Shown here: one piece after another, positions 1 through 51,031 of the stretch | Layout: each line of letters starts with the position of its first letter | How positions within the stretch are numbered: position 1 is the first letter of the stretch | Source: Mesotaenium endlicherianum | Lineage: Eukaryota | Reading direction: 5' to 3' | Length of the DNA stretch: 64,000 bases | Assembly: GCA_009602735.1 (NCBI GenBank) | Contig: WELA01002258.1 | Span: forward strand, 866,244 to 930,243 | Position numbers and translations under genes: made by a program | Notes under the pieces: generated by a model | What the model saw: the letters and a program-made list of their open reading frames with translations, nothing else | The model's database searches: none | Told to the model about the DNA's origin: nothing

Positions 1-479
1 CCTGAATTCTGACTGCATTCTTCGGCCCATTTGCCAATATTGCACTGGCGTTCTTCATATCTTGACGTTACCGCGTCTGGGGATGGGCTTCCGTAGACCT
101 GGTCTGGGGTCATATTTCGTAACGCAGAAGAGGTAATGTCTTCCCATTCCGGCGCCCTCACAAATATTTGGCTGGAGCGTTCTGCAGATAATGGGGCCTC
201 CTGTGATTTGCTTACTGCAGCGCTCCCCAAAGGGTTTGCTGCACCAGTTGCCTGGTCTTCCATGGCTACGTCTTCTCGCAGCCTTCGCAGCTCTCTTTCC
301 AGAGGGTCGTGTAGAGCCGCCATCCGATTGTCAATTTGCGCCAATAGGTCTTGACACCTGGTCAGCTCCACCACTCTGGTTTCTCTGAGTGTTTCTTCTT
401 GGTCAGCCTCAGCTGCGTCCCTTTCAATACTATGTTCTTTTTGTCGCCAATGCGCTTCTTTGATAGCTCTCTGATCAGA

Positions 480-3400
480 GGTTGGCATCGCATGGACTCC
501 AATCGTTATTGGTCTCGGCCTGGGCATAGGCTTGTCCGAGAACGTCATCTGCTGCCAAGTCATAATCGTCTCCACCAACCATGTCATGGAGTGATGCCCA
601 ATCATATTGCCGAATATCTTCCCAGCGTTGTCCTATCCCACCATTGCAACAATTTCTTGTGCAATGGAGTTGGGTATCCCCAGGCACCTTCCCTTCTCTT
701 CAGCTGTCGGCTCTCTCTACTGAGCTTCTCTGTCGTGCGCATTCTTGACCATTCCTGGTCCTCCATTCACGAATGCGCCGCGTAATCTCCTCCATCTCCC
801 TCAGGACTTCAATGGACATGCCGTTGGTCCAAAATAGTCTCGCCCGGTGTGAGAGTCCTCTGTCCCTGGCGTGATTGATCAATACATGATGACCCAGGGT
901 GGAGTCGAAGACCAGCCATGGATGTCCTAGCTTCATCTGGTTATACTCCATCCCTGGATGTCCATTCTCAATCACAAACACTGGTGGGAAGGGATGCTGG
1001 CGTTCCCGCAGCATGCTGATGATTCTCACCATCCATCCCCAGTGTCGTGCTCGCGGGTCATTGAATCCCCTCCTGTTTCCAGCTTGCGAGAAAGGTTGAC
1101 AAGGGAATCCCGCAAAGATCCAGTCAATCCTGTAACCATACAGGTCCTCAAACTTCACATCGAGAATGTTCCCTCCAGCAAGACGCACTAACTTAGAATC
1201 AGTAGGAACCAACGCCTTGAAATGGTACATTTGCCGCATCAGACTCATGACCTCCTTAAATGCTGTGAAAGCACCCGCATCATTGTCCACATACAGCACT
1301 TTGGATACCTGGATACCTCGCTGAATCAGTGAGATGGTTCCAGAACCAAGTCCGGCAAACAATTCCAGCACTACTACTCCTCTCCTTCGAAAAGGATCCT
1401 CCATCCTCACAATGCCTTGCGGCAGCGGGTCTACTCCAGGCATCAAATTGGCAGCAGACTTAACTGGATAGGGAACTGGCAGCAGCTCTTGCGGGCCACG
1501 GTCCCTGTTACTCACAGCTTCCAGTTGCTCCATAATCCGAGGTTGCCAAACCAAGGGAGTCGGCATGTTGACGCTGGTGTAGCCCTCCTCTTCGCGTTGC
1601 ATGATGAGGTCATAATGGCTTGGATACCGGTCATTCACACAACAGTCTAGCAGTCCGTAGTTTGCTTCTCCCGAGCAAACCATTTTTACAGGAATTTCTC
1701 CTGTCGGCTGCCGATCTGTCGACTGGTAAGTCACCCTCTGCTTCCGCAGGTCGATGACCATACCCAGGGGAATCAAAGCTTCTGTCCCCAAGAGACCATC
1801 ATAGTTCTCTGCCTCTGTCACCGTGCATTCTATGAGCAGTGACGCCTCCTTAGGTTTCCCAAAGTTAACTGTGATTTTTACAGGCTTGCGGGTAATTCCA
1901 CAAGACTTTGAAATCAGCCCAGATGCAGTCCTCAATTGAAAAGGACTTTGTTTCAGGTCCCTTGCCGTCAATCCTTGAGCTTTCACAGCTCGCTTTCCCA
2001 AGATTACTGGCTGTGCGCCAGTGTCCAATAGGATATTGGGAGCGGCCCAGTCGTTGAACGTCAAAACTCTATCCTTGTTCTGCACTCTCACAGTGCTGAA
2101 ATTAGTAGGCAGCAAAGCGCTGTTTGCGCTTTCCTCAGCTATGTCCAGCTGCCGTCCGGCTTCTTCAACCGTGAAAGGATACGTAAGACGCAGATCAGCA
2201 AGTGAAAGACAAGGAATGTGCTAAATCCGGTGCTCCACCAGAGCCTTCAGCTTTTCCAGCGAAAAACTAAATGTCTTGCGTGGCCCAGGCTTGGCTTGTC
2301 GTAGCTGCGCAATCTCGTTCTCATCGAGAGTGATCCGAAAGGTCTGAGGATGCTTCCCAGCATTCCTTGGAACCAGACGGTCATGATCTGCGCGCTCCGC
2401 AGCCGTTGCAGCCACGGCCTTCTCAGGCGTCAGCTTCTCGCCTTTACAGACGGTCTTTTTGGCCACATCTGCATCATAATAGACATTAGGCACATTTAGT
2501 CTTGCAAATTAAGCTTTCAACTCTGGAATCTCTGCACTCATAGCATCATACTTCTGGTTACTCTTCCGGTTACCAGAGTTATCTTTCTCCTTTTTCTTAC
2601 CCTTATCTGCCTCTTTCGTGGCAGCATTAGCCCGTGGTGGCTTCAGATTTGGGTTCTTGGACCTACACTCATCTTTTGAGTGTCCCTTTTTGCTGCAATG
2701 TGAGCATACCTGCGCCTTGCTAGCAGACAATTGCTTAGCATCCGGGTACGGACAATCTCTCTTCCGATGTCTCGATTTCCCGCAATTCCAACAGCCCTCT
2801 GCTGTCTCAGCAGTGTTGGCGTGCTTAGCAAACCTATTGAAAGACCCGCTCTTCTTTTTAAACTGAAAATTAGAGCTATTGGCCTTAGGCTGAAAGGATT
2901 CCTCCCTTCTCTCAGGAGCCATAAGCGTCCTGGACGCCTCCTTGTACCAGACTTTACCTTCCTCGACATTGCGTGCTATTTCAGCAATTTTGTCGATGTT
3001 CAAGTCGATTCCGCGTTTTGCAGATAGGTGCGGCCTGACCTCCCAATCTGTGTCTTTACCCAGACACAATAAGAATTTGTCAGCCACAATCCTAGGCTCA
3101 TAGATTCCTGCCTTCTTGGCAAGGTCTACCAATCTGGATTTGACCTCCATCACTGTGTTGTTCTTCTGACGGACAAAATGCATATAGCGGTGCACCTTAA
3201 GACTGCGATCCTCTGGGAATTTTGCTTCAAGCAACTTAAAGAAACGACGCAGACAGTGCTCACAGTCTAACTGGTCATCCCCAGCCTCCATATCCCTACT
3301 AGGCAACGCTTGCGCATGGCCTGCTTCCATGGTGGCACTATCACCATGCTGCCCTGTAAAAGGTGCAGCCCTGCGTGTTACTCGTTCCTGAGCATTAGCA

Positions 3401-4164
3401 ATCTTTTCAGACAATTTTGAACACACTTTACGCAATTCTGCGACAAAACCAGCATCATCATCTCGAGTAGCCGCTCGCTGCTTACCCTCGGTGAGTTGCC
3501 TCATGGCATCTGTTAATTCTTGTGTTACTGTAGCTAAATCTACGCTCTCAACAGGTGCAGCAGGTATCGCTCTTCCTGATGACAAAGCGGACAGTCGGGC
3601 TTTTGCAGCCTCTTTCTGGATTTTTAAATCCGTCGCCTTCTTTTGCTTGTCAAACGCCCATTCCAGGGTAAGGTTCTCATCCTTCCGGAAGTGGCGATAA
3701 AGCGACAAGGCATCCTTGTCCAAGTACTGAACCAAGCTTATAAAAGCGACTGACTAAGTATAAGAAGAATCCTTTCGAATATTCTCATAGAAATCAGCCC
3801 AATAGATCTCATCAAACTCTTTGAAAGTGAGACTATTTACACCGGTTCGTCCACTAAAACACTTTGTAGACAGCTTGAACTTAGGATTTTCATCCTTATC
3901 ATCACCAGTCATTTCAAATGGTGACCAAGACTTACTATCTTTACCCCACACGTTGTGCTCTCTGCCCAAATTGGGTACATAGGCTCGCTCGTTACACGGA
4001 TTCTCACCGTTCGTGGCAGTATGGCGAGACTCGTCTCCCGACGGTTGCTCACTCCACGGGTTATCCGTGCGCTCAGATGTCTCACTTCCTCGTGGACTCT
4101 GGCTTGAATCAGAATCTTCTGCAGGCTCCACAGGGTAATAGAGCCTTCCACTCCTCAACCGCAT
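480..4164 (-). pseudogene. Gag (2x CCHC) - aspartic protease - C5 DNA methyltransferase polyprotein, disrupted
   Basis: ORFs 3754-4257, 2509-3735, 2221-2493 and 700-2115 are all in one frame, separated only by single stop codons where copy 2 has Gln. Likely start MRLRSGR at 4164. Zinc knuckles CWNCGKSRHRKRDC and CSHCSKKGHSKDEC; protease LLDTGA...LLG. A frameshifting deletion of about 150 bp lies at ~775. Confidence 0.85.
560..1380 (-). other. C5 cytosine methyltransferase domain (copy 1)
   Basis: Motif I VLELFAGLGSG, motif IV FAGFPCQPFSQAG, V GFNDPR, VI VFVIEN(G), VIII SHRARLFWTN. In the shifted frame: IX REPTAEEKGRCLGIP and X KIFGNMIG. Confidence 0.9.
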
Positions 4165-7100
4165 GTACAGTTGAATTTCTCCGGGTCCCCTTCCAGGTTG
4201 AGCACCGGCGGCCCTTACAGGCCTCAATCCCCAATTTGCTTGGGAATTTCTATTCACCTAAACCACAGAATCGAGGTTCTCAAAAGTAGGACGGAAGTCT
4301 CTTACTTCCACATAGGCTTTATGCCTTAAGGTTCTTGGGTTCTCAGGCGAGCAAATTGTGGTTTGCAAAAATCACACTCTAAGCAGCTTGACATACAACG
4401 TCAAGTTCAGAGAAAATCACCCTTCAGGCTTTCGCTTAACTTTCGCAAGTCACGGCTTACAAAACTCTGAAACTACACGTCTATGCTGGCTTGGATCAAG
4501 CTCTTCACTTAACACCGCCTTAACAGCTCTTCACTGTCAGGCTAGGCCCACTCAGTTCTTTACTGAGAGCTTTATCTGCCAATACTACTCTCTCTCTTCG
4601 AGATGCGAATGCGACTTCTGAGAACCTGGAAGCTAACACACAACTCACCATTTTAAGGCTGCTTCACACACTTGTGGTGTTCGGCTGAATCTGTGATACA
4701 CTGAGAAGAATCTTCAGCGTCGGCAAAAGCGTGGGGCCTCGGCCCTCCAATGGCCTTGGGAACTCCTTATTCTTCTTCGCGCCCTTCTTCTCCTTCCTTC
4801 TGCTTCTTTTGCTTCCTCTGCTTCTTGGCAAAAGTGCGTGAGAGTGAATGACATGACTCAGGCAAGATTCGTGCCTTTCGCAGGCACCACACAGCGTCAT
4901 CTTTCGAGAATGCCGTGCTTAGTCACAAAGCTTAGCTGCATGTCGCTTTAGCCTAGCCATGCTCAACTCAAACTCGTAGTCACTCAGCATGCATGCACAC
5001 CTCGTGACTGTCGCACGTGGCTGCTTAGCTTCTCAGCTGGCAGTCACGCCTAATCGGCTCATGGCTAAGAACTCCTGAGCGGCGTGTACAAGCAAATGCC
5101 ACTTGCTCAAGATTCCCAACCGGGCGGCCGTAATCTATCTTGGCATTGTTGTCATGACCTGGCTTAATCCGCCAGTCGCACAGTACCGGACTTGGTACCT
5201 GCTGGGCGGCTCATCACTGATCCCCAGCTTCTACTCTCGCGGCTGTCTATGCTGTCAAAACCTCCCCCATTCCTGGATGTGGGGCACATTGACATTGACC
5301 CCTTGCCAGTGGTCTTGATGCCGACAAAACCGCTGACTGCAACGAAATCAGTCAAGTGGTCGGTGAGTCAGCGTTGACTTTTTGTACCTGGGTGGCCGTA
5401 GCTTGCGCTGCGCGTGCGGCACCGTGAAACGGATAATAGTCGCGACACTACTTTGATTATTTAGCTCAAAACGCTCAGAACACAACCAAATTGTTCTGAT
5501 ATGTTGTATGCCTAAGGTGGTTGTCAAGAATATTCTGTGAATACATCCTCAAGTTTTAAAGGTCTTGTGAGCACGTAAGTATATTGAAGCGTACAGATGG
5601 TAAAGGAATTTCATTTTGTTCACTCGTATTTGAAACTATACTTTCAAAAGGCACCTGAAGTTGCCCATAGTTTACGTGGAATGTCATGAACAAAGAGGTT
5701 TGCTATCGATTGTGGTACTGATGGGTACAGATGAGAATTTGGTATCAGTTGGTATTAACCTCAACCGACAACATACAAAAGGTCAACCAACACGGTTGTA
5801 GAGTTAGTTGAACACATCACTCGCCAAGATTTGCTCCTCCGAGTTTGCCCTCTTATTGAGGAAAATGTAGAAAATGTACTTACCAAGTCTATCTTTGGAC
5901 CCAGCTTAGCTATGCCTGTCATCATCTGCAGCTCGTTCTTCCAGGCACCATAGATTTTCCTCTTATGCTCTTTCCACAGTTATTGCACCTCCAACTTCGC
6001 TCATCCACCCATCCGCAAGCAATCTTGCGCAAATGATCTTACTCTAGTCTATATCTTCACTCCTCCTCGCCAAAAGGAGCTGGTAGCTTATTACTTTCAG
6101 TCACCTTTAAACTTGGTTTGTCTCAAGATTCCTAGCTTTATCTTTGTCTAATTGTGGTTCCTCCGATACACTCCTCTCAACACGCCCTCCTGCAGACGTT
6201 GCTCTCATTCCTGCATGATACATCAATCCCCTCTTTTCCACAATGCTTCGAATAGACACTCAGTATTCTCCCACTCCATGCAACTCTGTCCCTTCTTCTC
6301 TGCCACCTCTCCCTCCTGCTCAGCCACAAGCACAGCCACGGACACGATATTTTGTGTCTCTTTGGCTCTTATGAGAGGTCCCTTACCTTCAATAGCCAAG
6401 AAGTTATGGCTACAAATTGAGCTGAGGGTGCAGTTGTCGGGCAGCGTATCGTTGATGCAAAAAAATAGCTTAGCATTAGCTCTTCCTAGAGCCTTCCCCC
6501 TTGTACTCTAAATTCCATGATAAAGTCCAATTTCTTACTTAATGATTGTCCTTAGATGTTTTGGCCCACCTCCGCTCTTGTGAGGCAATGCCGCTACAAC
6601 GAATTTGCATTTACTCCAAACTCCTCTCGAGATGTATATCCTATGTTCTCTTCAGACATCTCTTCCATAATGTACTCCAAAGAAACTTCCAATTTTCTCA
6701 ACTCCTGCTCATAGAGCGGACAAGTCCTTTTGGCTAGTTTGCCAAGTGTTTCTCATACTCGATGCGAGCATCAGCTATATACGGCTCCACACTCTCTTGC
6801 ATAGTCGAGTTCACATTGATTTGGTATTCCTTACCATAAGGCTCTGCCGCTTCTTCAAAATACTCCTCTCACATCTACAATTATTTTTTCCTCTCATGCA
6901 ACCATAACCCAGCCCCGCACAAGCATTCAAGCAAGAGAAAAAAGTAGCCACAAGATAGGCCTGTGGCAGCAGTAAGAAGAGGAACTGAAAATGCCACAAC
7001 AAGGCCCAATTGCAGTACTAAAAGAGCCAAAAACAAGTCCATGAAAAAAGCCCCAATATAGCAAAAAAAAAGAGGAATAGATGCAACCATAGCACAACCC

Positions 7101-10943: not shown

Positions 10944-11300
10944 CCTAGTTGTGGAATACTTGCGTATTGGTCCATGAGCACCAAGTTATACCACACATTT
11001 TCACGTATTCTGAAAAAACCAAAAAACGACGCCCAAAAAACGTGAAAAGGAAATATTGACAAGTATAAAATGTTGATATCATTTTTTTTCTTTTAGCACT
11101 TTTTGCTTGTAACAAATTGAATCTTCTACCATCCGCAACCAAACGCTCGAAGTTTCAAAGTATTGTGGAACTTATGAAGTTTTCTATCTTTTCCAAGAAT
11201 CTTGGAAAATAGAAATACTCGCGTATTTTCATATTTTACACGTATAACTCTAGTACGTATTTGTTATACCAATACCACGTATTCGTTTTCCATAACCAGG
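10944..11300. mobile_element. hAT-type MITE 2 (357 bp)
   Basis: TIR CCTAGTTGTGG...CCATAACCAGG, flanked by a perfect 8-bp TSD CTACTAAG (10936-10943 and 11301-11308). Subterminal TACT(C/T)GCGTATT motifs are shared with MITE 1. Confidence 0.85.
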
Positions 11301-27400: not shown

Positions 27401-28098
27401 ATGCATCCAGCCGCGCGCTCTTGATGAGGCACGCAGCCACGATGACAGGAGAATCCTGCTCATGCCGTGCACGCAGTACTCGCAAGCATGCATCATCCTT
27501 GAATAGACTTCCAGGATGGCGCTCATGGTGGCAAGTCCAAGAGCTCTCAAGTGCCACCGTGACCCCCACGCCACTCTCCCAACGATGACACCTGGCTACA
27601 AGAACCTCCAGCTTCTCCTTCCTGCAGTCTAGATGTGGCTGGACAGCACTGGACCTGAGCAGAATTCATGAGCGGCAGCGAAGTTTTCTGGGACGTTACG
27701 CTGCCCAAAAGGGATGACCCAGCGGGATGACCCAGCTGGCAGCAGCAGGCCCCCCCCCTTTCCTTTTCCCACGCCCTGCTGCCTTTGAAGCATGCCCTTC
27801 AATCGCCGGCAACTCCTGGCTCAACCCTCACAGGGTACCATCCCGCGGTCAGGGGGAGACGCGCGTACCCAGAAGTAGCCAGGGGCAGCCACCGAGATGT
27901 TGTAGGAGCCCACATAGTCCGTGGGGGCCCACTCGCGGGTGGTGACATACAGCAGGTTGTCCTGCAGCAGCAGCTGGGCTCCCAACGCCGTGCTGTTGGC
28001 TGGCAGGCCGCCGACATAGCTGCTGTCGGCCGCCCACGTGCGGTTAAAGTGGTCGACGAAGGCGGGACCGCCGCAGTTGATGCGGACCACTTCGCCAT
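13547..28098 (-). CDS. Multi-exon receptor-like kinase with ten malectin domains (five tandem pairs), TM helix and RD kinase; 5' end/signal exon unresolved
   Basis: Phase-consistent GT-AG exons at the 3' end: 15888-16086, 15604-15738 (TM), 15247-15464, 14922-15057, 14610-14770, 14335-14480, 14040-14133 and 13547-13918. Upstream exons carry repeated malectin motifs RINCGG/RxNx[17 protein letters not shown]..vG and P.v.AIE. Confidence 0.9.
15604..15738 (-). other. Transmembrane exon
   Basis: [26 protein letters not shown] followed by the GRRR stop-transfer motif. Confidence 0.9.
15888..19037 (-). other. Malectin pair 5 (domains 9+10), membrane-proximal
   Basis: IRINCGG...VRVYYGEF...MVSAIE, then RKNIGG...VRLHFAEL...LDVVKEVG...LNALEL. 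Confidence 0.8.
16196..18229. repeat. ~900-bp direct duplication on either side of an N gap (probable assembly overlap)
   Basis: About 16196-17096 repeats about 17328-18229 (offset 1133) with only a few SNPs, and both copies abut the N run 17097-17327. Confidence 0.85.
19189..21012 (-). other. Malectin pair 4 (domains 7+8)
   Basis: VRINCGG...VRLYFAEV (third exon obscured by an N at 20154), then RYNIGG...VRLHFAEL...LDLVKEVG...LCGVEL. Confidence 0.75.
21185..23147 (-). other. Malectin pair 3 (domains 5+6)
   Basis: LHINCGG...IRVHFAEL...YVNAIE, then RWNVGG...LRLHFCEV...LDVMVEAG...LSAVEM. Confidence 0.8.
23393..25287 (-). other. Malectin pair 2 (domains 3+4)
   Basis: LRINCGG...VRLQFAEL...YVNAIE, then RRVNVGG...VRLHFAEI...LDIVRQVG...LSAFEI. 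Confidence 0.8.
25590..28098 (-). other. Malectin pair 1 (domains 1+2)
   Basis: VRINCGG...VRLHFMEL...ISAIE, then RLDMGG...ARLHFAEV...LDVVRLAG...LSALEV. Confidence 0.8.
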
Positions 28099-31000
28099 CT
28101 GGACGTCACTCCGAATGCAAAACGTTCGAACTGAGTGAAATGAGCGAACAGAGTACTCGGCAGCATAATATCTTTCTGGCAGCTGCTTTCAACCCCTGCC
28201 CAGTCAACGCTGCTCGACCAATCTCCAGAAATGTATATAAGTCTCCCTTCTACCTTTCCTTGCTTCCCCGTGATGACAAGCTTGACGACTGTGTGCATCA
28301 GCAAACGCTTCCTGAAAAGCAGGCAGGCTGCTGCTCGTCGCTGCAAGCTGCTGTGGCATGTGAGGACCCAGCACTCAATTGACATGCAGCAGAGGACGAG
28401 GAGGGGGAGGGGAGCATCTGTGCATGGGTTGACAGTGCACGCCACACGCAGCTTCCATTGCTGCCATAACCCGCCATACACAGCCTTGCGGTATATTTGA
28501 AACTCCTCATCAACTTCATCAATATACAGAGTTGCATCCAATCAGGCATTACCAAGCCTGATGAAAATGTCAGACTGATTCTAACCTATAGCACAGCCGC
28601 ATAGCGACTATCTGCCCCTGCTCCCACACCAATACATAAGTTCACTACACGTTTCTTGTTCAACTTGTCGGGTACAAGTCCCTCCTGCGCTCCGCTAAGA
28701 ACCGAAGCCACATGTTCTCCAGTCAACTCATTTCATCATTCAACTTGTTCAGTTTCTGTCGTGGCCCCTCTACTTGTTGAAAGTATGTCGTCTATGCCCT
28801 TACCCTCTTTGACTACTCGCGTTTATGTCAGGGCGCATTCTATAATTATAACTACTCCACAAGCCAGCATAGCAGCTAGTGTAGACACACGTGCTCGTTT
28901 GAAATTCGGACTCATGTTCGGGTTATTCAAAATGCGCACGCTCAGTCACATAGATGGCAGGTACAGAAGGGTGGAGTCGCTGAAGGCACTTCAAGTAAAG
29001 AGCCAGTTCTGCTTCAACTTCAAACGCCCCTGCAGTTATGCAGCCAGTCGGGTACCGTAATACAGGCTTGCATATCTTGGGGAGGCAAACGTGCTTAAGA
29101 AGGAAAGCTTGCGAGAAGCTGGAATTAAATTCATTTCTGAGGCAATTCACCTTGTTTCGCTATAAGAAAGTGCTTTTTTATTTCCCGTAGCCTGTGCTCG
29201 ACTGTTCAATGCGAATTACGAGAGCCTTGATATCACTCACATGCATTCTCGGCACCCACGCGTTTACCTGAACTCTCGCCATTAACGGCTACAAGCAGGA
29301 CGATGAAAAGCCAGTATATGCATGCGAAGCGTCCGCGCTTCATGGGCCTCGTGTTGGCAGATTACTTCATGTAAATTTCTTGTCAAGGCATCTATAGTAG
29401 AGGGGGCACGACCCTACGAGACAAGAAGTTGAATCATAAGCTGACGAAGGGCAAATTTCTAAATTTCACAATTAAGGAATGGAGCAGACAAGACCTGATG
29501 TCAATCACCACTTGCAGGCGCGTGAAGGCCCGAGCTCTTGACGACGTAGCCGACCTCGGAACTTGTACGCGTGAGGCGACAACAGAGAGAAGTGGGAGTA
29601 ACCGGGTCTGACTGGGACAGGTAATCGGGTCGGACCCTTGAAATAGTCGCGAAAACGCCAAAATTTGCAATTCGCTTGGACTCCCGGCGCGGCCACCACC
29701 TCCGGAACAAACTTTTCTCGATTCGACCGGGAGACATTTTACACGCAAATGCATCCGAGAGGCATCGTACCAAAAAGGACGGAAAAATGCATGAAGCCCT
29801 GCCTGGCGTAATCATGCAAATATGAGAGCACATTCGACTGACGTACTCGAGCATAAGCGTGTATGCAACAAACGAAACTCAACGACACGATTTGTACGCC
29901 TCTGCAAATCTGTACCTTGGAATCACTCAAAAGCTGCTGACAATTTCGAGACCAAGCACGCGAGATCACGGAATTTGAGAAGCAAATGACAAGACGACAA
30001 GGTCCAGAAATATAGAATCGAGGTGACGACAAGCCAGGCGCTTGACTACCAGTTCGTCTTGACGTAGGGTATTGTCACACATATGTCACACATTGCCACA
30101 AGAATGAGGGCGGCAACCTCAGTCATGAGTGCGACCGCGACGTGGACAAGGACCGCTGACAATTGTCACCGTAACCTCGTCTTGCCGTTAGACGCAACGT
30201 ATCTAGTTCGAAACACAGCTGCTCGGGTTGGGCAACAGCCTAAATACCGTCATTTTCCTTTAAAGTGACTTACATAATTTTGTTTGTCTTAGCGATGTTG
30301 CGACTGCTATCCACTTGACGGTGCCCACACGCAGCGCAAGTCACGGCCACCCAGGTACGGGAAGTCAGCATTGACTCACCGACCAGAGGACCGAGTCAGC
30401 GCTCATGTTGAAGTCGTTGTCACTGTCAAAGTGGTCACGACACGTCACACCCACACCCAAGACGGGATGAGGATGTGGACCGAGTGGTCAGCTGAAAGGC
30501 TAGGGGCATGGAACCAGCAATGAGCCAGCCTTGCGAGTGCCAAGAAAGGTACTGATCAATCGGCTATTCAAGCCAAGTACAACGGGGATGTTGCAAAGGG
30601 CGTTGTGTGCCGCCTCGGATAGGCCCTCAGCTGACTGGTCACGGCCTGAGCGTTCATCCTAAACGCTGCGAGCCAGCCACATAGGCGTGATTGTCAGTTG
30701 GAAGGCTAAGTGGTCACGCGCAACAGTTCCAAATGCATGCATGCATGCCGAATGACAACTTCTAAGCTGTGTGAGAGCTTATGGGTAAGGACGGCATGCA
30801 AGCCAAGCGCTGTGACTAAGCGCTGGTATTCTCGAAAGAGGATAGTGTGTGGTGCTTGTGAAAGGCACGAGTCCTGCCTGAAGCTGCCTCATCCTTGCTC
30901 GCATTGTTGTCAAAGGAAGCTGAAGAAGCAGAAGGTGTGCAAAGAAGAAGGAATTCCCAAGGCCATAGAAGGGCCGAGGTGCCACGCTTCTGCCAACGCT

Positions 31001-31645
31001 GGAAGATTTCTTCTCAAGTGTATCATAGAAAGGTTAGGCCTCAGGAGTTTCCAAGAGAGAATCTCGCTGGTGGAAAGTAGAGAGCTGTAATAGAATTTGT
31101 TAGGAGATTAGTGCAGATTGAGGTTAAACGCCGCAAGCGTGCGAGGGTCACTTAAAATGGTGAGTGCTGTGTTAGTCTCCAAAGTTCTCAGAAGTCTCTA
31201 TTGTCGAATTGCTGATAGCAAAAGTAGTATTGACAAGTAAAGCTCTCAGTGAAGAACTAAGTGAGCCCAGCCAAGCAGTGAAGAGCTGTTAAGGCGCGGG
31301 GTTGAGCGAAGAGCTCAGACCAGGCCAGCATAGATGTGCAGTTCAGAGTTTTGTAAGCTGTGACTCGTGGAAGTTAAGCGAAAGCCTTGAAGAGCGATTT
31401 TCTCTAAACTTGACATTGGCTGTTAAGCTGCTTAGACGTGATTTCTGCAAACTACAAACTTGTTCATTATGTAAACCCTCAAATTGGGCAAAAGCCTGTG
31501 TGGAAGTAAGACACTTCTGTCCTACTTCTGAGAACTTGGTTGATTGGTTCAGGTGAGCAAGAATTCCCAAGTCGGTTGGGGATTGAGGCCTGTGAAGGCT
31601 GCCGGTGTTCAACCTGGAAGGGGACCCGGAGAAATTCAACTGTAT

Positions 31646-34600
31646 ATGCGGTTGAGGAGAGGAAGACTCTACCACTTTGTGGAGCCTGCAGAAGGTTCTG
31701 ATTCTAGCCAGAGTCCACGAGAAAGTGAGACGTCTGAGCATACTGACAACCGGTGGAGTGAGCAACCGTCGAGTGACGAGTCTCGTCATAACTCCGCAAG
31801 CGGTGAGAACCCAGATAATACACGAGCCTTTGTACCTGATTTGGGCAGAGAGCAAGACGTGTGGGGAAGAGTCAGTGAGTCTTGTTCACCGTTCGAAATG
31901 GCCGGTGATGATCGGGATGAAAATCCTGAGTTCAAGCTGTCTGCAAAGTGTTTTAGCGGACGAACCAGCGGAAATGGTCTCACTTTCGAAGAGGTTGATA
32001 AGATCTATTGGGCAAAACTCTTTGAGAAGATTGGGAAGGATTCTTCTTATACGCAATTTGTCGCATTTATAGGCTTGGTTCAATACTTGGACAAGGATGC
32101 CCTGCTGTTATATCGCCAATTCCGGAAGGATGAGGATCTCACCCAGGAATGGGCGTTTGGAGAACAGAAAAGGGCTAGGGATTTGAAAATTTCGGAAAGA
32201 GGCTGCGAAAGCCCGAATGTCCGCTTTATCTTCAGGAAGAACAGTGACAACTGCACCTGTTGAGAGCATAGACTTAGCTGCACTAACACAAGAATTAACA
32301 GAGGCCATGAGGTAACTCACTGAGGGCCAGCGAAAGGCTGCCACTCAAGATGATGATGCCGGCTCTGTCGCAAAATTGCGAAAGGTGTGTGCAAACTGTC
32401 TGAAAAGATTGCTAAAGCTCAGGAACGAGTAACACGCAGAGCTACACCTCTCAATGGTCAGCAAAGCGATAGCGCCACGACAGAGGCAAGCCCTGCGCAA
32501 GCCTTAGCTAGCTGTCGTAAGGATATGGAGGCTGGGGATGACCAGCTAGACTCCAAGCATTGCCTGCATCGTTTCTTCAAGTTGCTTGAAGCACAATTTC
32601 CAGAGGATTGCAGTCTTAAGGTGCACCGATATGTGCATTTTGTTCGTCAGAAGAACGAGACAGTCCTGGAGGTCAAATCCAGATTGGTAGACCTCGCTAA
32701 AAAGGCAAAAATTTACGAGCCCAGAATGGTGGCTGACAAGTTTCGGTTGTGCTTGGGCAAGGAAACAGATCGTGAAGTCAGGCCACATCTGTCCGCAAAG
32801 CACGGAATTGACTGGGACATCGACGAGGCGGCTGGAATAGCACGTAATATTGAAGAAGGTAAAGTGTGGTATAGAGAGGCTTCCAGGACGCTTATGGCTC
32901 CTGAGAGGAGAGAGGAATTCTCTTTGCCTAAGGCCAACAGCTCTAATTTTCAGTTTAAGAATAAGAGCGGGTCTTTCAATAAGTTTGCTAAGCACGCCAA
33001 CACTGCTGAAACAGCAGAGAGTTGTTGGAATTGCGGGAAATCAGAAGAGAGATTGCCCGTACCCAGATGCTAAGCAACTATCTGCTAGCAAAGCGCAGAT
33101 ATGCGCACATTGCAGTAAGAAGGGACACTCGGAAGATGAGTGCTGGTCTAAGAACCCAAATCTAAAGCCGCCCTGGGCAAATGCTGCCACGAAAGAGGCA
33201 GACAAAGAGAAAAAGAAAAAAAAGGGTGGCTCTGGTAACCGCAAGGGTAAGCAGAAGTATGAAGCTATGAGTGCAGAAATGGCTGAGTTGAAAGCGCAGT
33301 TTGCGAAACTAAATGCACCCAATGTCTACTATGATGCAGATATTGCAGAAAAGACCGTCTGCAAAGGCGAGAAGCGGCTGCCTGGAAAGACTGTGGATGC
33401 AACGGCTGCCGAGCAAGCAGATCACAATCGTCTAGTGCCAAGGAATGCTGGGAAGCTTCCTCAGACTTTCCGGATCACTCTGGATGAGAACGAGATCTCG
33501 CAGCTACGACAAACCAGGCCCGGGTCGCGCACGACATTTAGCTTTTCGCTGGAGAAACTGAAGGCCCTGGTGGAACACCGGATCCAGCATGCTCCTTTGC
33601 TTTCTCTCGCTGATTTGCATATCACTTACCCATTCATGGTTGTAGAGGCCGGACATCAGCTAATATAGCTGAGGAAGGTGCAAATAGCGCCTCATTGCCT
33701 ACCAATTTTAGCACCGTGAGAGTGCAAAATAAGAATGGTGCATTGATCTTCAACAACTGGGCGGCTCCCAACATTCTGTTGGATACGGGCGCACAGCCAG
33801 TCATTTTGGGAAAACGAGCTGTGAAAGCTTTAGGTTTGACAACAAGGGATCTGAAAGAGAGTCCTTTTCAGTTGAGAACTGCCTCAGGACAAGTCTCAAA
33901 GTCTTGTGGGATTTCCCGCAAGCTTGTGAAAATCATAGTAAATCCAGGGAAACCTGAAGAGGTGTCACTATACATGGAGTGCACAGTGACGGAAGCTGGG
34001 AACTATAATATTCTCTTGGGAACAGAAGCACTGATTCCCTTGGGTATGGTCATTGATCTGCGGAAACAGAAAGTGACTTACCAGTCAACAGATAGGCAGC
34101 CGGCAGGAGAAATTCCTGTGAAAATGGTTTGCATAGGAGAAGCAAACTACGGACTGCTAGACTGCTACGTTAATGACAGGTACCCAGAAGCCAGTGACAA
34201 CCTCATGAAGCAAGAAGAGGAATTCTATACAAGCATCAACATGCCAATACCCTTGGTATGGCAACCCCGGATCATGAAGCAGTTGGAAACTGTGAGTAAT
34301 AGGGACCACGGCCCGCAAGAGCTGCTGCCAATACCCTACCCAGTTACTTCCTCTGCAAATCTGACGCCTAGAGTGGAGCTGCTGCCGCAAGGCATTTTCA
34401 GGATGGAAGATCTTTTCCGCAAAAGGGGAGTGGTGGTGTCGGAATTATTCGCTGGACTTGGCTCTGGGACCATAGCATTGATCCAGCGAGGAATACAGGT
34501 GGCCAAAGTCCTGTATGTGGACAACGATGACCACGCTTTCCGAGCATTCCAAGAGGTCATGAATCAGATGCGGCAAATGCATCATTTTAAAGGATTGGCG

Positions 34601-36469
34601 TCTGCATATAGCAATGTCGAGCGCATTGCCGGAGGCAACATTATGAATGTGAAGCCTAAATACCTGTATGGCTACAAGATTGATTGGATCTTTGCTGGAG
34701 TCCCTTGTCAACCATTTTCTCAAGGTGGAAACAGGACGGGAGTTAGTGACCCACGAGCACAACACTGGGGATGGATGGTGAAAATCATCAACATGCTGCG
34801 GGAACGTCAGCACTATCACCCACCTGTGTTTGTGATTGAGAACGTACATACAGGAATGGACTACAAGCAGATGAAGCCGGGAGAACCATGGCTGATTTTC
34901 GACTCCACTTTGGGCCATCATGTGCTAATCAACGACGCCACGCACGGGCGATTATCCCATAGGGCCAGGATGTTTTGGACCAACGACATGTTTATCGAGG
35001 TTCTGAGAGAAATGGAGGACATTACACGGCGATCACTGACAGCTTTGACAGTGGAAAGGGCACTGGCGGTGCATACCAGACTAGTGACCTGGAGGGATTC
35101 CTATCCACAGTGTGTCATCAACGAACCAGGCCAGCCAAGAGTGGTATTGCCTACTCTTACAGCATATCCAGGATCCCGAGCCTTCAGAGGAGGTGGACCA
35201 GGAGTGGTCAAAGACATATATAAAAGAGTCGCCGTGTGGAGAGAGCCCACCGCGGTGGAAAAGGGCAAATGCCTTGGAATACCCGACACCATAGCTCGGC
35301 GTATAGCCGGTGCTGTAGGATCAGATGAAGCTGCAAAGATTTTCGATAACATGATTGGGCAGCGCTCTATGACTTGGTTGGTGGAAACAGTCATGACATG
35401 GCAACAGTTGACCTTCACTGACAAGCCTATGCCGAGACCAAGACCAGTGCCAATTGGGATCAATGTGGGGCTAACATCTGATCAGAGGGCTATCAGAACG
35501 GCACATCAGCAACAAGAAGAATACTGGGTGCAAAGTGACGCAGCGGAAGCCGCTGTAGACAGAGCATACAGGAGAGATAGGGTGGCAGAACTGATGAGAT
35601 GTCAGGATCTATTGGATCGGATTGATAACCGTACCAATGAATTACAAGCACCTCTGGAAAGAGAGGATACACCCATGGGGGATCAGGCGCCTGAGCAAGC
35701 AACACCGCTACCCGAAGTGGAAGATGATACGCATGGCACCCCATCATCTGTGAAAAACGCCACTCACAGCCAGATTTTTGGGAGCTCACCTCCCGGAGCA
35801 ACGACATCAATACGTAAAGAGACCCCAGAATAGGCCAGGTCAGGGTATGATACCCCATTTAGCCCAAGAGCAGCTGGGCACGGAGACTATTGGCAGGAAA
35901 GCTCAAGTAGCTGGGAAGCCAACCAAAAGTGTCTATCGTCTTCACCAGAGCGAGCATCGTTACAAGACATGTCAGAAGAATCTGAGAAGTAGGCTCCTGA
36001 GCCTACAGATGAAAATACGGGATATTGCCTAACCCAAGAACTAAGGCAAGAACGCCAGTGCAATCTTGGTGAACGGGCCGAAGAGAGTAGCCAGAACTCA
36101 GGAGATTTCAGAGGGTCTGCAAAGATCATATGTCTCGAAGTGATATTTGAAGAACGCCAAGAGGAGTCGGACAAGAAACTATCTACAACACCTGCCTTGA
36201 TGAGCCCAGAGCCGCAGGCTAAAAGGCATCAGCAGGGTTCAGCCAGTCAAACAGTTGAGTCCATTGCAAGACAAATCATGGAGCAGCTGCTAGACGCAGA
36301 CGCTCGACAACACAAGGAAAGGGAAGTGTCTAAGGTGGCAAGCACTCTGCAATCAGCCATCGTCAACTTGGCGAAGCTCAACACAGATAATGAAGAAGAA
36401 CCGCCACCACCTGGAGCGGAGAAATTAGTTGAAGATGAGGCAGAGATGCCAGACCTTCCGCGGGGTTGA
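31646..36469 (+). pseudogene. Gag - protease - C5 DNA methyltransferase - low-complexity spacer polyprotein, disrupted
   Basis: ORF pieces 31544-32263, 32387-33073, 32850-33668, 33695-35833 and 36140-36469. The 712-aa piece holds LLDTGA and the whole DNMT domain. Frameshifts and stops are seen by comparison with copy 1. Confidence 0.85.
34426..35400 (+). other. C5 cytosine methyltransferase domain (copy 2), uninterrupted
   Basis: ELFAGLGSG (I), LYVDND (II), AGVPCQPFSQGG (IV), DPR (V), VFVIENV (VI), HRARMFWTN (VIII), TRD with PTLTA, REPTAVEKGKCLGIP (IX), KIFDNMIG (X; FGN in copy 1). Confidence 0.9.
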
Positions 36470-36700
36470 GGCGCGGGGTTGAGCGAAGAGCTCAGACCAG
36501 GCCAGCATAGATGTGCAGTTCAGAGTTTTGTAAGCTGTGACTCGTGGAAGTTAAGCGAAAGCCTTGAAGGGCAATTTTCTCTGAACTTGACATTGCGTGT
36601 TAAGCTGCTTAGACGCGATTTCTGCAAACTACAAACTTGTTCATTCTGTAAACCCTCAACTTGGGCGAAAGCCTGTGTGGAAGTAAGACGCTTCTGTCCT
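36469..36700 (+). repeat. Direct repeat of 31292-31523 (probable remnant of the 3' LTR)
   Basis: 232 bp with about 10 mismatches by eye. The left junction shows a duplicated GCGGGGTTGAG. Confidence 0.9.
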
Positions 36701-39355
36701 TGTAAGGGAAACTGAAGATAAGCTACCTTTTTGAAAAAATTTGCTAAGTGTTGAATGAGGAACTGGTTGAACATGGGAAGCACTGAGTGTGGGATGCCTC
36801 ACCGCATGATGCAAGTGCAGGAAGACCAGGAATGGGTCAGACCCCAACCAGTTTGTCACCGACAAACGTGCAAAGGACGATCAATCCGATCGATCCCCAC
36901 GTGCGACGAGGCACCGACACGTCAACCAAGTCGAAGGCACACGTGCTGAGAAGCCACGCACGCGCCAGGGGTCCGACGCTGTTAGGCACAACAGGGACTC
37001 ATTGCTGAACAACATGAGAGTTGTTAGCGTGCTTTTCAAATAGCCATGATGGTTTTCTTGCATGTAAATCTGAAAATGTGCAAGTCACGAAACAGTGTGG
37101 TTTAGTCCCCCGGCATAGTTCTTCGTGGTGGCGTGCGTCAAGTCCCCGCCCCCGTCGTCCACGTGAGTTCAATCCCACATTCTCCGCAAGCAGCAGGCCT
37201 CTATTGAGGTGTGGGTGGAGGACGCTGCCACCGTCCCATCGAGGAGCTCTCTGTGGCGCTCTTTCAGGGGGGGGCACCTGTCGCAGTGGAGAAGAAAGAG
37301 GCTGACGCACTGTATGACCTGAAGAAGATGGAGAGGGAGCTGGCGGGCGTGGAGCACTGCCAACCTGGCGGGGCTGCAGGATCGCCTCTCGGCCGTCAAC
37401 CCGTTCAGCCTCCTTATACATGAGTTAACTGATTGCATGACTGATGCACGTTCACTCGCATTTGACTTTGGAACGCTAGTTGTGAAGCCTTTTGCTGATT
37501 ATTAGGTAATCAAAAAACCCATAAGATTACTTGATGACGTAGAATCTTTCAATAATTGTTAATCGTCTACTGATAAGTCGATTCATTTCAGTGGTATTGG
37601 AGTTGGTGTCATAGATTCCTTTGTATGGTAAGGACGCGGTATCAGAATAGCAACTCTTAAGATATGGAGGGTCAGGATAATGAGAAGAGGGAGGAAAAAA
37701 TGAAGATGTTAAATTTCGTACTTATGCTGAAGTTCTTGCATCTAAAGAAGCTAGAGAAGCCGAGGAAACGGCGGCGGCCCTCGTTGTAGTAGCACCTCAG
37801 CAAGCAAAAAAAGATCTCATTAAAACAGAGGCCAAACGTTTGGCTAAAGCAGAGAACGAGGCAGATGCTGAAAAGCGGCGTTTGGCTGACAACAACACGG
37901 TTGAAGAAATGATGGTAGAAAGGGCCACTCTCCAAAACCAACCTCTTGATGGAACTACTACTGTACCTTTCACCCAAATAAATAGACAGTTAGGCGAGAT
38001 AGGACTTGCTCATGCAGCAGCAAGAGGAAATGCCAAATCTGCTGCTGAGCAATTGAACGATGCTGCTGCTGCTATTGCTGGATTGCAACCTCAGAATGTT
38101 GATGTGGGTGCATTGTTGCGTTCAAACGCAGTCTCAGATGACATTGATGTATCAGTCTCAACAGGAGGACTAGAGGATTATGATAGCGTTCATGCATAAG
38201 AAAGATTAACTGGGGTTTCACACTACTGGTGGTGGCAGGGGGCCTAGCAGGCTCAAGCCAAAGTCACCTCAGGACTATGACCCCGAGGAAAGCAAAAAGA
38301 ATTCCATGACAAAGTTTCTCGGTGATGTTGAGCAGTGGCTGGAGAATTAACCAGATAAGCAAGATTTTGGAATATTTAGACACACCGGTGCTCTGTTGAA
38401 AGGCAGCACAGCAGACTGGTGGCTTCTCTACAAAGGAGGGTGTAAAGCTAAACAACTCGGTGACCCTACATGGGAAGAGTTCCGTTGAGCAATTGCATAA
38501 GAAATTAGATGTCATCAATCAAATGGAGAAAGCTATCTATGAAATGATCTGCTTGTCATTGAAGCAAATTACTTCAGTTGGTGAGTATGCAAAGAAATTC
38601 CAGGAAAATGTGATGAAGTAGCTTGCATTGTCAAAGCTACATCGAATTGCATACTTCCAGTTTGGCTTGAAGTCTGAGGTCTCGAGTCAATTTGCTAAGA
38701 AGAAGTATAAGAAGCTGGCTCATTTGATCCAAGATATTGATGCTTGGGATCAACGGGAATTCAACCATAACTTGGCACCCACCAGTGTCTCTCCTCTTGT
38801 CCTGTATGGATGGCAAATGAAGCAAAAAGAAAGGTTTCCAGGAGGATGCAAGTTGCTGAATACAATGGAGTTTGTCTAAAGCTCGAATTACAAGAAAGAC
38901 ATAATGTTTTGCTTGTTGCTCAAAGAGTTACCTCTTTAATTTGAGAAAAGAGTAAGCCCACCGGAGCACCCTACCGCTGCGATAATTGTTGCTCAGTATG
39001 ATGGTGTTTTTAACATGCCCCCAGGAATGCCCCTTAAAAGGGAGGTAGATCATAAGATTGATTTGGTACCCGGAGGCAGCCTCCGTGGCAGCGTACGCAT
39101 GGCTCGTCCTATGTTGAGAGTGAGGAGACAAAAACACAAATTCAAGAGTTGAGGAAAAGAGTTACATATCTCCTAGTAAGTCCCCTTATGGCGCACCCAT
39201 TCTATTCGTTCTGAAGAAGGATGGCAGAATGCGAATGTGTGTGGACTACAAACCTAAAACTAGAATCACGGTAAAGAATTAATGTGCTTTACCTAGGATT
39301 GAGGATCTGCTTGATACAGTGTCTGGAGCTAAAGTGTTATATAAAATTGACCTTA
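36701..39355 (+). mobile_element. Decayed Ty3/gypsy element related to 44721-52828 (5' LTR 36701-37590, PBS, gag and RT remnants)
   Basis: TGTAAG...ATTCATTTCA, then GTGGTATTGGAGT. The gag start ATGGTAAGGAC and PKPK...DYDP region are homologous to the 45501 gag. A deletion at ~38770 removes the gag end and protease. RT remnant [10 protein letters not shown]...RMCVDY...KIDL. Confidence 0.85.
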
Positions 39356-39547
39356 ATACTAAATAGCCCGGAGGTTTCTAGATGGACCAACGGTCACTTT
39401 CTAGACCAACTACTTGGCCCTCTGATATGTGGTTGGAATTTCATACTACTCATTTGTTTATTGTGAAATTAATCTCGAACGATAGCTTACGTCGCAAGGA
39501 ACCTGGCATAAAATCAAGAGATCAAAACAACCAAGTATGGGGCCGGG

Positions 39548-39816
39548 GGCCCCCAACACATCCCAAAACTTGCCACCTCTTTTTAGAATAATGTACACAT
39601 GTTCTTTTGACTTAAAAATGGCACATTTGACTTTTGCCACATGGAGTTCTTCTAGGTCCTTCCTCTAACTTCGAGAATGCCTCAGAAGGTTCAAAGGACA
39701 TGAACCAAGTCACTAGAGTATCTATTCACACTTGACTCCACACAATACTACTCCAAATATAATCAAAAGCATCAAAAATATATGCAAACTAATACATTAT
39801 AACTCAAATCATTACA
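39548..39816 (-). repeat. Inverted partial LTR of the 55154-61833 family
   Basis: The reverse complement begins TGTAATGATTTGAG at 39816 and matches the first ~265 bp of the 55154 LTR. Confidence 0.9.
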
Positions 39817-41680: not shown

Positions 41681-42760
41681 TGTGGCGAAACTTGCGCTGG
41701 CTACGCTATGGAGGGTCCTAATATGTGGGTACGATGGATGTAAGGGATTGGAAAACTCCATCATATATATGTAGACATCCAAACACTCACCCGAATTAAG
41801 AGGCTCGGGCAAGGATAATGAAAAGAGTGGAACAAGTCATTAGAGGAAGAGCGAGGGCAAGTCACGACGTGGGGGGCGCAACTTGCGCTTGCATAGCTAT
41901 GGAGAGTGCCATATTTAGGGGATGGTGGATGTAAGGAGTTGGAATTCTCCATAACAAATACGTGAAGACATCTAAACACTCACCCCAATTAAGAGGCATT
42001 GGCAAGGATAGTAAAAAGAGAGGTACAAGTTATTAGAGGAGAAGCGAGGGCAAGTCACAACATGGAGCGCAACTTGCGCTCGCATAGCTATGGAGGGTGC
42101 CATTTTGAGAGGATGATGGATGTAAAGGGATGGAATGCAATATATGTCATGACATACAAACACTCAACCCATTTACAAGGCATCGAAATAATAGTGAAAA
42201 GACTGGTACAAGTGACTAGAGAACCAGCGAGGGCAGGTAATGTCATCGAGCGCAACTTGCGCTCGCCTAGCTATGGAGGGTGGCATTTTGAGGGGAGGAT
42301 GGATGTAAAAGGTTGGAATACTCCATAATATATATGTGACGATAAGCTAACACTCACCCCATTTAAGAGGCTTTCGCGAGGATAGTCAAAAGAGTGGGAC
42401 AAGTCATTGGAGGAAGAAGCGTGGGCGAGCACGACATCGAGCGCAACTTGCGCTCGCATAGCTATGGAGGGTGCCGCTTTGAGAGGATGATGGATGTGAA
42501 GGGTAGGAATACTCTTTATATATATGAAAAGACATCCAAACACGCACCCCAATTAAGAGGCTTTGGCAAGGATAGTCAAAAGAGTCATACAAGTGAGTAG
42601 AGGGAGCAAGGGAGAGTAAACAACAAAGAGCATAATTTGCGCACGACAAGCTATGGAGGGTGCCATTTTTAAGGAATGATATATAAGAGGTAGATATACA
42701 ATGTAATATATATGTAAAGACATCCAAATACTCAAGCATAGACAAAAAGTGGCATAAGTG
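41681..42760. repeat. Tandem array of ~190-bp units (about 6 copies)
   Basis: The anchor GCTATGGA recurs at 41705, 41896, 42087, 42270, 42461 and 42650. Confidence 0.9.
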
Positions 42761-50764: not shown

Positions 50765-51031
50765 CTGTCATTTCAGTTGACACGGGAAGGTGACAGGCGG
50801 TCCTGTCTCCATTTAAGTTGGAGGGGAAAATATATGACAGTTAGTGAGCGAGAGCGATAAAAACACACTCATACGTTTATGTGTAGCGCATCGCAACTAC
50901 GTCAACTTTTAGCAATCATCCTGTAAGGTAAACAGCAGCGAAGCCACTATACTAAATACTAACATACTTCCTGCAATCCCTATGACAAAGGTCCATATCC
51001 TACTAACTTGTGCCCTGGTTACATGTGCAGG

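What the first reader, a model, noticed from the sequence alone, without database searches (positions are those of the whole stretch)
30296..36700. Retroelement with a complete C5 DNA methyltransferase fused in-frame directly behind Gag and protease
Seen: two diverged copies (here and 1-5447) share the order Gag (2x CCHC) - LLDTGA protease - DNMT with motifs I, II, IV (PCQ), V, VI (ENV), VIII, TRD, IX and X. In copy 1 everything from gag to motif VIII lies in one frame, so the ancestor was a single polyprotein with the DNMT where RT normally follows protease. Established: DNMT-bearing retrotransposons were reported in dinoflagellates and charophytes (de Mendoza et al. 2018), so the concept has precedent. 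Whether this family or domain order is described I cannot tell. Inference: in-frame fusion would package the DNMT into the particle, where it could methylate new cDNA (self-marking or camouflage) or host DNA.
Basis: partly seen in the sequence, partly recalled or inferred. Interest (0 to 1): 0.9.

Follow-up and report, generated by a model that had tools for sequence, protein, structure and literature searches.

The report
RT-less Gypsy element keeping DNMT3
This is a broken copy of an abundant jumping gene, likely from a green alga related to land plants, that encodes a DNMT3-type DNA methyltransferase right behind its capsid and protease but has no reverse transcriptase or integrase: a stripped-down variant of an element type described in 2018, which would likely borrow a helper's enzymes and methylate its own new copies.

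Summary
Observation confirmed; novelty mostly not. Both copies read Gag (2 CCHC), protease, DNMT (Pfam PF00145, E 6e-15 and 4e-15). The DNMT is Dnmt3-type and was under purifying selection (dN/dS 0.16). It does not replace RT. In autonomous relatives the order is Gag-PR-DNMT-RT-RH-IN-PHD, and PR-DNMT proteins occur in Klebsormidium, Mesostigma, Coleochaete, Closterium and a liverwort. This is the clade of KnitGypsy-Dnmt3 (de Mendoza 2018); this scan already noted moss members on other DNA. The host is likely Mesotaenium or close kin. The window copy (30296-36993, TG...CA) holds only the first part and no RT/RH/IN. I found three points in none of my 10 paper searches. (1) The family is likely RT-less yet kept its DNMT. 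(2) Relatives have a conserved stop (TAG-CAR) between DNMT and RT, so DNMT would be made at Gag levels. (3) The split repeats join at a CA-GC-TG palindrome shared with relatives that have 4-bp target duplications, suggesting integrase opens a circle. Methylation of new cDNA is untested. Verdict: new variant of a known kind, interest 0.5.

The parts
30296..36993 (+). Whole element, copy 2 (A-coding-B form). TG...CA ends with an imperfect terminal inverted repeat.
   Evidence: Copy 1 starts at the same base. Contig depth jumps about 100-fold near 30.2 kb and falls after about 37.0 kb. Contigs join 36993/4 to 30296.
30292..30295 (+). Left flank GCGA; possible decayed 4-bp target duplication
   Evidence: 3 of 4 letters match the right flank; chance 0.052. 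Weak.
36994..36997 (+). Right flank GGGA
30296..31287 (+). Left terminal region (unique part of repeat A); likely promoter
   Evidence: Homologous to copy 1. The little RNA signal in the element lies here. Promoter role inferred.
31288..31523 (+). 236-nt direct repeat R, left copy
   Evidence: 95% identical to 36465-36700, K2P distance 0.048
31646..33200 (+). gag: first ATG 31646; CCHC 1 broken near 33040; CCHC 2 intact at 33102-33143. Frame breaks after 32184, 32392, 33039; stop at 32313.
   Evidence: dN/dS against copy 1 is 0.21 in the gag core and 0.08 in the knuckles. No Pfam capsid hit; weak match to the L001 gag region, E 1e-7.
33770..34033 (+). Aspartic protease (catalytic Asp codon 33782)
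   Evidence: PF13975 E 2.2e-6; dN/dS 0.10
34430..35400 (+). Dnmt3-type C5 DNA methyltransferase, motifs in unpermuted order, open frame in this copy
   Evidence: PF00145. Family profile best matches DNMT3A, E 9e-25. Model pLDDT 88; Foldseek top hits DNMT3B/3A. dN/dS 0.16.
35441..36469 (+). About 340-codon acidic, low-complexity tail in the DNMT frame, ending inside R; stops at 35831 and 35990 in this copy; no RT/RH/IN
   Evidence: dN/dS 0.25 over 83 codons and 0.13 over 18 codons against copy 1; the 35831 stop is not shared by the 11 contigs covering it
36465..36700 (+). Direct repeat R, right copy, preceded by a short G-run
36701..36993 (+). Right terminal region (unique part of repeat B), ending in CA
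   Evidence: Unique in the window; high contig depth; joined to 30296 in other family copies
1..5447 (-). Copy 1 of the family, cut by the window edge inside the tail; 3 in-frame stops, TRD deletion

Best explanation
A decayed copy of a high-copy, likely non-autonomous offshoot of the streptophyte Gypsy-DNMT3 retrotransposons: it keeps the Gag-protease-DNMT3 reading frame and the ends, has no RT, RNase H or integrase, would likely have been copied by an autonomous helper, and its DNMT is predicted to methylate the new cDNA in the particle. Shown: anatomy, Dnmt3 type, purifying selection, absence of RT in copy 2, and the domain order, conserved stop, split repeats and 4-bp target duplications of relatives. 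Inferred: (1) In the parent clade Gag-PR-DNMT is the abundant product, and in some families RT-RH-IN-PHD is reached by reading through a leaky stop, so the DNMT would enter particles at Gag-like levels. (2) This family kept that first product and dropped the second. (3) B+A together form the LTR, behind a G-run. Reverse transcription would give circles that integrase opens at the palindromic CA-GC-TG junction, yielding A-coding-B-A-B or A-coding-B inserts. (4) Methylating the fresh copy would help it pass as host DNA, which would explain why the domain was kept. About 0.93 for the clade, 0.65 for a family-wide lack of RT, 0.5 for action on cDNA.
For: Order in relatives. 21 of 152 proteins have DNMT after PR or before RT. 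Of 17 metagenome loci examined, 15 have PR before DNMT, 15 have RT after it, 13 have both, and 6 run through to IN-PHD. Named members: K. nitens, Closterium spp., Mesostigma, Coleochaete, Calypogeia. In the DNMT tree the window sequence falls on the PR-first side of a split supported at SH-aLRT 96. Conserved stop: 14 of 15 loci have TAG/TAA then CAR at the same place before RT, in two families about 47% identical in the DNMT. Ends: L014 is A-coding-B-A-B with target duplication CATA; L007 is A-coding-B with TACA; the B|A junction is CA-GC-TG in L003 and CA-GT-TG in L001. The window family's contigs show CA-GC/GT/AC/AT-TG junctions in 7 of 12 rows shown, plus one in a run labelled as another organism. 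RT-less at family level: two copies with dS 0.64 share an in-frame coding tail to within 360 nt of R; contigs cover the tail without a gap up to R, and 2% of laid contigs run on into unlike sequence. Host: a neighbouring kinase exon best matches two Mesotaenium endlicherianum proteins at 89% and 83%.
Against: Copy 1 is cut by the window edge, so its 3' part is unseen, and no genome was held. Short unitigs break at branch points, and 363 loose ends were not shown, so an RT-bearing branch could be missed. The window DNMT is a long branch (2.46) at most 30% identical to any relative, so its place is unsure. Motif X is off-pattern. The related K. nitens domain gave no methylation in yeast. Five PR-first proteins run from DNMT into RT with no stop (P0008, P0014, P0059, P0162, P0170), so readthrough is not clade-wide. 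The window tail shows no such stop context. The window's target duplication is only 3 of 4. No tRNA primer site is evident, while a normal Gypsy in the same window has one, so priming is unexplained. No helper element was found. Three RNA runs show almost no reads over the DNMT.
Confidence: 0.55

Rival explanations
1. An ordinary autonomous Gypsy-DNMT3 family (KnitGypsy-Dnmt3 type); this one copy, or a small subfamily, lost RT-RH-IN by internal deletion. The selection seen dates from the autonomous ancestors.
For: Copy 1's 3' end is outside the window. A short tandem duplication lies at the tail/R boundary. Relatives with the same first ORF continue into RT. Contig evidence is indirect.
Against: A 340-codon conserved tail is shared by both copies with no RT trace. 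Tail coverage runs unbroken into R, and no well-supported loose end appears there among those listed.
Confidence: 0.27
2. Same anatomy, but the DNMT does not protect new cDNA. It damps the family or its helper (self-limiting silencing), or serves as a non-catalytic DNA-binding part of the particle or integration complex.
For: Divergent motif X and a long branch. KnitGypsy DNMT was inactive in yeast. de Mendoza 2018 raise a host-benefit option. The element looks silent in 3 RNA runs.
Against: Catalytic Cys, Glu and motif VIII Arg residues are kept in both copies. dN/dS is 0.16. The fold is complete.
Confidence: 0.14
3. A domesticated or host DNMT3 gene that picked up retroelement parts.
For: No RT; purifying selection.
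Against: Intronless beside an intron-rich host gene; high copy; TG...CA ends; both copies broken; near-zero RNA.
Confidence: 0.03

Closest known systems
KnitGypsy-Dnmt3 / streptophyte Gypsy-DNMT3 (de Mendoza et al. 2018, PMC5890265)
   Same: Intronless, unpermuted Dnmt3-type domain in a Gypsy polyprotein of a charophyte; Ka/Ks under 0.2; DIRS-like split repeats (Fig. 4 legend). K. nitens GAQ93235.1 has Gag-CCHC-PR-DNMT and matches at E 2.5e-32, 27% identity.
   Different: There the DNMT shares an ORF with RT and RNase H (reviewer file); here RT, RH and IN are absent. The passages I read give no junction, target duplication or stop codon. I could not see Fig. 4c or the main supplement, which may show the domain order.
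RT-RH-DNMT-IN-PHD Gypsy elements (76 of 152 proteins; hosts not looked up)
   Same: Homologous DNMT (about 30% identity)
   Different: DNMT sits between RNase H and integrase; other side of the tree split.
SymbioDIRS-Dnmt3 and other split-repeat DIRS/PAT elements
   Same: A-coding-B-A-B repeats; Dnmt3 domain shown to methylate CG in yeast
   Different: DIRS use a tyrosine recombinase. Relatives here have protease, DDE integrase, TG...CA ends and 4-bp target duplications.
EpiLTRs (bioRxiv 10.64898/2026.05.21.726589)
   Same: LTR elements carrying a DNMT
   Different: DNMT4-sister enzyme plus DAM and chromodomain; the preprint calls them distinct from Gypsy-DNMT3.
TR-GAG-type non-autonomous LTR elements (recalled, not checked in a call)
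   Same: Keep Gag (and protease), lack RT and integrase
   Different: No methyltransferase; ordinary paired LTRs with a primer site.

Membership tests
KnitGypsy-Dnmt3 / Gypsy-DNMT3 | Intronless, unpermuted DNMT of the Dnmt3 class | tested here: met
   Family profile: DNMT3A E 9e-25, DRM 1.5e-13, HhaI 1e-10, DNMT2 2e-6, no DNMT1 at E<=0.01. Foldseek top 5 are DNMT3A/B, with HhaI close behind. The single-sequence search ranked HaeIII first. No tree with host DNMT classes was built.
KnitGypsy-Dnmt3 / Gypsy-DNMT3 | DNMT in the same ORF as RT and RNase H of a Gypsy Pol | tested here: not met
   No RT/RH in either copy; copy 1 is cut by the window edge. So filed as a derivative, not a member.
KnitGypsy-Dnmt3 / Gypsy-DNMT3 | A-coding-B-A-B repeat structure | tested here: inconclusive
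   The window copy is A-coding-B. The B|A junction exists in family contigs, but no contig spans a full end. The full form is seen in relative L014.
KnitGypsy-Dnmt3 / Gypsy-DNMT3 | Purifying selection on the DNMT (Ka/Ks under 0.2) | tested here: met
   0.16 over 194 codons, one pair of copies
KnitGypsy-Dnmt3 / Gypsy-DNMT3 | Charophyte host | tested here: met
   One 72-aa host exon: best hits M. endlicherianum 89% and 83%, next rice 47%; the species itself is not proven
KnitGypsy-Dnmt3 / Gypsy-DNMT3 | RT falls among Ty3/Gypsy | not testable with these tools
   The element has no RT; relatives have PR-RT-RH-IN order with rve integrase
DIRS / split-repeat tyrosine-recombinase elements | Tyrosine recombinase, no DDE integrase | tested here: not met
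   No recombinase Pfam hit in the element's ORFs; relatives carry rve integrase and 4-bp duplications
Canonical LTR element / TR-GAG (recalled) | Two full LTRs, tRNA primer site behind the left LTR | tested here: not met
   Only 236 nt are repeated and the ends are unique. By eye there is no Met-type primer site, whereas the Gypsy at 55154-61833 has one. No tRNA set was searched.
Active C5 DNA methyltransferase | Methyl transfer to cytosine | not testable with these tools
   Motifs and fold only

The most novel reading that the evidence does not exclude
A parasite of a retrotransposon that shed RT and integrase but kept capsid, protease and a DNMT3, showing that the methyltransferase pays for itself in cis. 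It belongs to a streptophyte-wide Gypsy lineage that makes its DNMT at Gag levels ahead of a leaky stop and integrates by having a DDE integrase open a DNA circle at a palindromic CA-GC-TG junction instead of joining linear LTR ends.
Probability: 0.35. Interest if true: 0.75.

Novelty: new variant of a known kind. Interest (0 to 1): 0.5.

Why it matters
Why retrotransposons carry DNA methyltransferases has been open since 2018. A family that lost its replication enzymes yet kept the DNMT under selection is a natural experiment that points to a benefit for the element's own copies, and it likely lies in a cultured alga with many public RNA runs. The conserved stop and the circle-type junction in relatives give two direct tests: DNMT abundance in particles, and integration from circles by a Gypsy integrase.

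Tried and rejected
No whole genome was held, so there is no copy census or helper search. Word-based protein searches gave 1 hit each. A metagenome scan with the single window DNMT found no relative among 10 pattern matches. Alignments A1 and A2 were too diverse for locus scans, so viral contigs were never scanned. The Atlas returned only generic C5-MTase clusters, mostly phage; a phage origin was rejected. No RNA holder was listed by the run finder. No tRNA genes lie in the window. The tail has no match in the 152 relatives or 17 loci. The window's end regions have no DNA similarity to the relatives' repeats beyond the terminal bases. I first read 'no target duplication' at 5 bp; the relatives then showed 4 bp, where 3 of 4 match. 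The two intact chromoviruses in the window are not helpers: they have ordinary LTRs, and the element's ends have no match to them. REM1 and Gypsy-7a passages did not describe split repeats. Look-ups of earlier findings by sequence, by genome, and for split repeats with readthrough returned nothing. Dropped rows: 354 of 504 relatives were not listed; 63 of 80 loci with weak matches (E 3e-10 or worse) were not examined; that scan covered 26 of 64 parts and kept 80 of 258; the tree used 118 of 152 proteins (DNMT span at least 280 aa) plus copy 2, with the quick method.
Full report
Observation. One open frame at 33614-35833 carries an aspartic protease (PF13975, E 2.2e-6) and a C5 methyltransferase (PF00145, E 6.2e-15). 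The inverted copy at 1-5447 has the same domains and a zinc knuckle. The copies are 81% identical over 3.9 kb. Copy 1 stays in one frame from gag to motif VIII, with three stops that are Gln codons in copy 2. Copy 2 has four frame breaks before the protease. So the ancestor was one Gag-PR-DNMT frame. Over 1132 codons dN/dS is 0.18 at dS 0.64; it is 0.16 in DNMT motifs I-VIII and 0.10 in the protease (one pair, Nei-Gojobori). Both copies are dead as elements. Copy 1 also lacks about 150 nt of the TRD.

The enzyme. A profile of 48 sequences (the 2 copies plus 46 relatives) ranks DNMT3A first in the PDB (E 9e-25), then DNMT3B/C, DRM (1.5e-13), HhaI (1e-10) and DNMT2 (2e-6). The AlphaFold model (pLDDT 88, pTM 0.88) has DNMT3A/B as its top five Foldseek hits, with HhaI nearly tied. 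A single-sequence search was weak and ranked HaeIII first. Catalytic Cys, Glu and motif VIII are kept; motif X is off-pattern. I built no tree with host DNMT classes.

The ends. It starts TG at 30296, where copy 1 also starts, and ends CA at 36993. Only 236 nt are repeated (31288-31523 and 36465-36700, 95%). Summed contig depth of run X1 is 9,000-79,000 across the element against 280-490 on both sides. The tool warns this is no copy number, but it marks a large family with the DNMT widely present: DNMT bins 9,200-24,500, gag bins 33,600-46,300. Contigs join 36993/4 to the element's first bases with two letters between: CA-GC-TG, or GT, AC, AT. This is 7 of the 12 rows shown, with 17 not shown, plus one loose end in run X5. 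The variants are what cytosine deamination on either strand would make of GC (inference). Three RNA runs, read at 6, 13 and 24%, give depth 0 over the DNMT except 0.62 in one bin.

What is missing. No RT or RNase H lies in either copy, and the integrase and PHD hits are chance-level. After motif X the frame continues for about 340 acidic codons and stops inside the right repeat. This tail is conserved as coding sequence between the copies (dN/dS 0.25 over 83 codons; 0.13 over 18 codons, 360 nt before the repeat). Contigs cover it without a gap up to the repeat, and 2% of 2739 laid contigs run on into unlike sequence. That favours an RT-less family but does not prove it. Copy 1 is cut by the window edge, unitigs break at forks, 363 loose ends were not shown, and no genome was held.

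Relatives. HMMER found 504 proteins at E<=0.001; 150 were listed. With two earlier hits, 21 of 152 have DNMT after protease or before RT, 76 have it between RNase H/RT and integrase, 50 show DNMT only and 5 protease only. Of 30 looked up, named ones come from Klebsormidium nitens (GAQ93235.1), Closterium spp., Mesostigma, Coleochaete, Calypogeia and Marchantia. A quick tree of 119 DNMT domains separates the two architectures at SH-aLRT 96 and puts the window sequence with the protease-first group, on a long branch. A metagenome scan gave 17 strong loci of 80 kept. 13 of them have PR-DNMT-RT in order, and 6 run to IN-PHD. So the DNMT's normal slot is before RT, not instead of it.

Two features of those loci bear on mechanism. 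First, 14 of the 15 loci with DNMT and RT have a stop at the same place 93-126 nt before RT, followed by CAR. It is shared by two families about 47% identical in the DNMT, though 12 of the 14 belong to one family. TAG-CAG-TTA fits the CAR-YYA readthrough signal (recalled). Five other proteins run into RT with no stop. Second, L014 is A-coding-B-A-B and L007 is A-coding-B. Both have TG...CA ends and exact 4-bp target duplications. The B|A junction is CA-GC-TG in L003 and CA-GT-TG in L001, and a G-run precedes B. The window copy's flanks match at 3 of 4 (chance 0.052). The last and first bases of the window element resemble those of these distant families.

Host. A 72-aa kinase exon of the neighbouring gene best matches two Mesotaenium endlicherianum proteins (89%, 83%), next rice at 47%. 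The host is likely that zygnematophyte alga or close kin. PMC12344493's table lists DNMT1, CMT, DNMT3, DRM, ChloroDNMT and DNMT2 for that species.

How it likely works. Shown steps are above. Inferred: the first product, Gag-PR-DNMT-tail, assembles particles, and the protease releases the DNMT. A helper would supply RT and integrase. B+A behaves as the LTR; cDNA circles would be cut after CA on each strand of the palindromic junction and inserted with a 4-bp duplication. A two-LTR circle gives A-coding-B-A-B; a one-LTR circle or later B-B recombination gives A-coding-B, as here. The DNMT would methylate the new copy. Priming is unexplained: I saw no Met-type primer site, while the normal Gypsy at 55154-61833 has one. 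Rivals: private loss of RT in an autonomous family (0.27), a silencing or non-catalytic role (0.14), a domesticated gene (0.03).

What is known. PMC5890265 describes KnitGypsy-Dnmt3: Dnmt3 in a Gypsy Pol, DIRS-like repeats, Ka/Ks under 0.2, no activity in yeast (called inconclusive), and the cDNA self-methylation idea. I read its abstract, sections 9-11, passages, supplementary table and passages of the reviewer file. Figures and the main supplement were not available and may show the domain order. Passages only: PMC6338049, PMC12344493, PMC10952607, PMC9940879, PMC2774666, and bioRxiv 10.64898/2026.05.21.726589 (supplements closed), which lists streptophyte Gypsy-DNMT3 as known. Ten searches showed no paper on an RT-less form, the stop or the junction. 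None searched for readthrough by name, and the library lacks most subscription papers. Earlier notes of this scan report moss members of the same clade and pointed me to the preprint; they are leads, not support.

Verdict. The element works like KnitGypsy-Dnmt3 and descends from its clade. It fails one defining feature (DNMT in an ORF with RT), so it is filed as a derivative: new variant of a known kind. The boldest reading not excluded has probability 0.35 and interest 0.75.

Noticed in passing
L001 5083-5085; L003 12131-12133; 12 further loci: Conserved in-frame stop between the DNMT tail and RT, context TAG-CAG-TTA (L001, L002) or TAR-CAA-CCY, in 14 of 15 loci. The first fits the tobamovirus-type CAR-YYA readthrough signal (motif recalled).
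   Followed up: partly
L014 6671-15880; L007 8193-16832; L003 15527-15550: Autonomous Gypsy-DNMT3 elements with split repeats, TG...CA ends, 4-bp target duplications (2 of 2 with both outer ends) and a CA-GC-TG junction. Hosts are unknown; their DNMT is 59-70% identical to Marchantia and Calypogeia proteins.
   Followed up: yes
P0072, P0078, P0128 (Calypogeia fissa); P0122 (Marchantia polymorpha OAE24016.1): Members of the clade in liverwort records, i.e. land plants. PMC6338049 states that methylase-encoding transposons are absent from land plants such as tracheophytes.
   Followed up: partly
P0001 and 75 other proteins: A second architecture, RT-RH-DNMT-IN(-PHD), with the same DNMT in another slot; it forms one side of the tree split. 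Hosts not looked up.
   Followed up: partly
window 13550-28200, minus strand: Intron-rich, GC-rich receptor-like kinase gene with about seven repeated ectodomain units read by eye as malectin-like; its kinase exon matches Mesotaenium proteins, one with malectin domains.
   Followed up: partly
window 16195-17627: Near-identical duplicate (spacing 1133) on both sides of an N gap; likely an assembly artefact.
   Followed up: no
window 55154-61833, +: Young intact chromovirus Gypsy: 503-nt LTRs 98.6% identical, 5-bp target duplication, Met primer site, G-rich tract, open gag and pol with chromodomain.
   Followed up: partly
window 45396-52818, +: Second chromovirus with open gag and pol plus an extra 580-codon ORF (50963-52708) with no convincing Pfam match, bracketed by a perfect 45-nt direct repeat.
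   Followed up: no
window 53176-54465, +: piggyBac-like transposase ORF (PF13843, E 1.8e-29).
   Followed up: no
window 41675-42734: Tandem array with a unit of about 191 nt, 5-6 copies.
   Followed up: no
window 37190-37413: Fragment resembling an exon of a well-expressed gene elsewhere: RNA depth about 160 per strand in run X17, with fixed differences and loose ends on both sides.
   Followed up: no
window 7234-8577, minus strand: Broken hAT-like transposase remnants, read by eye; not searched.
   Followed up: no
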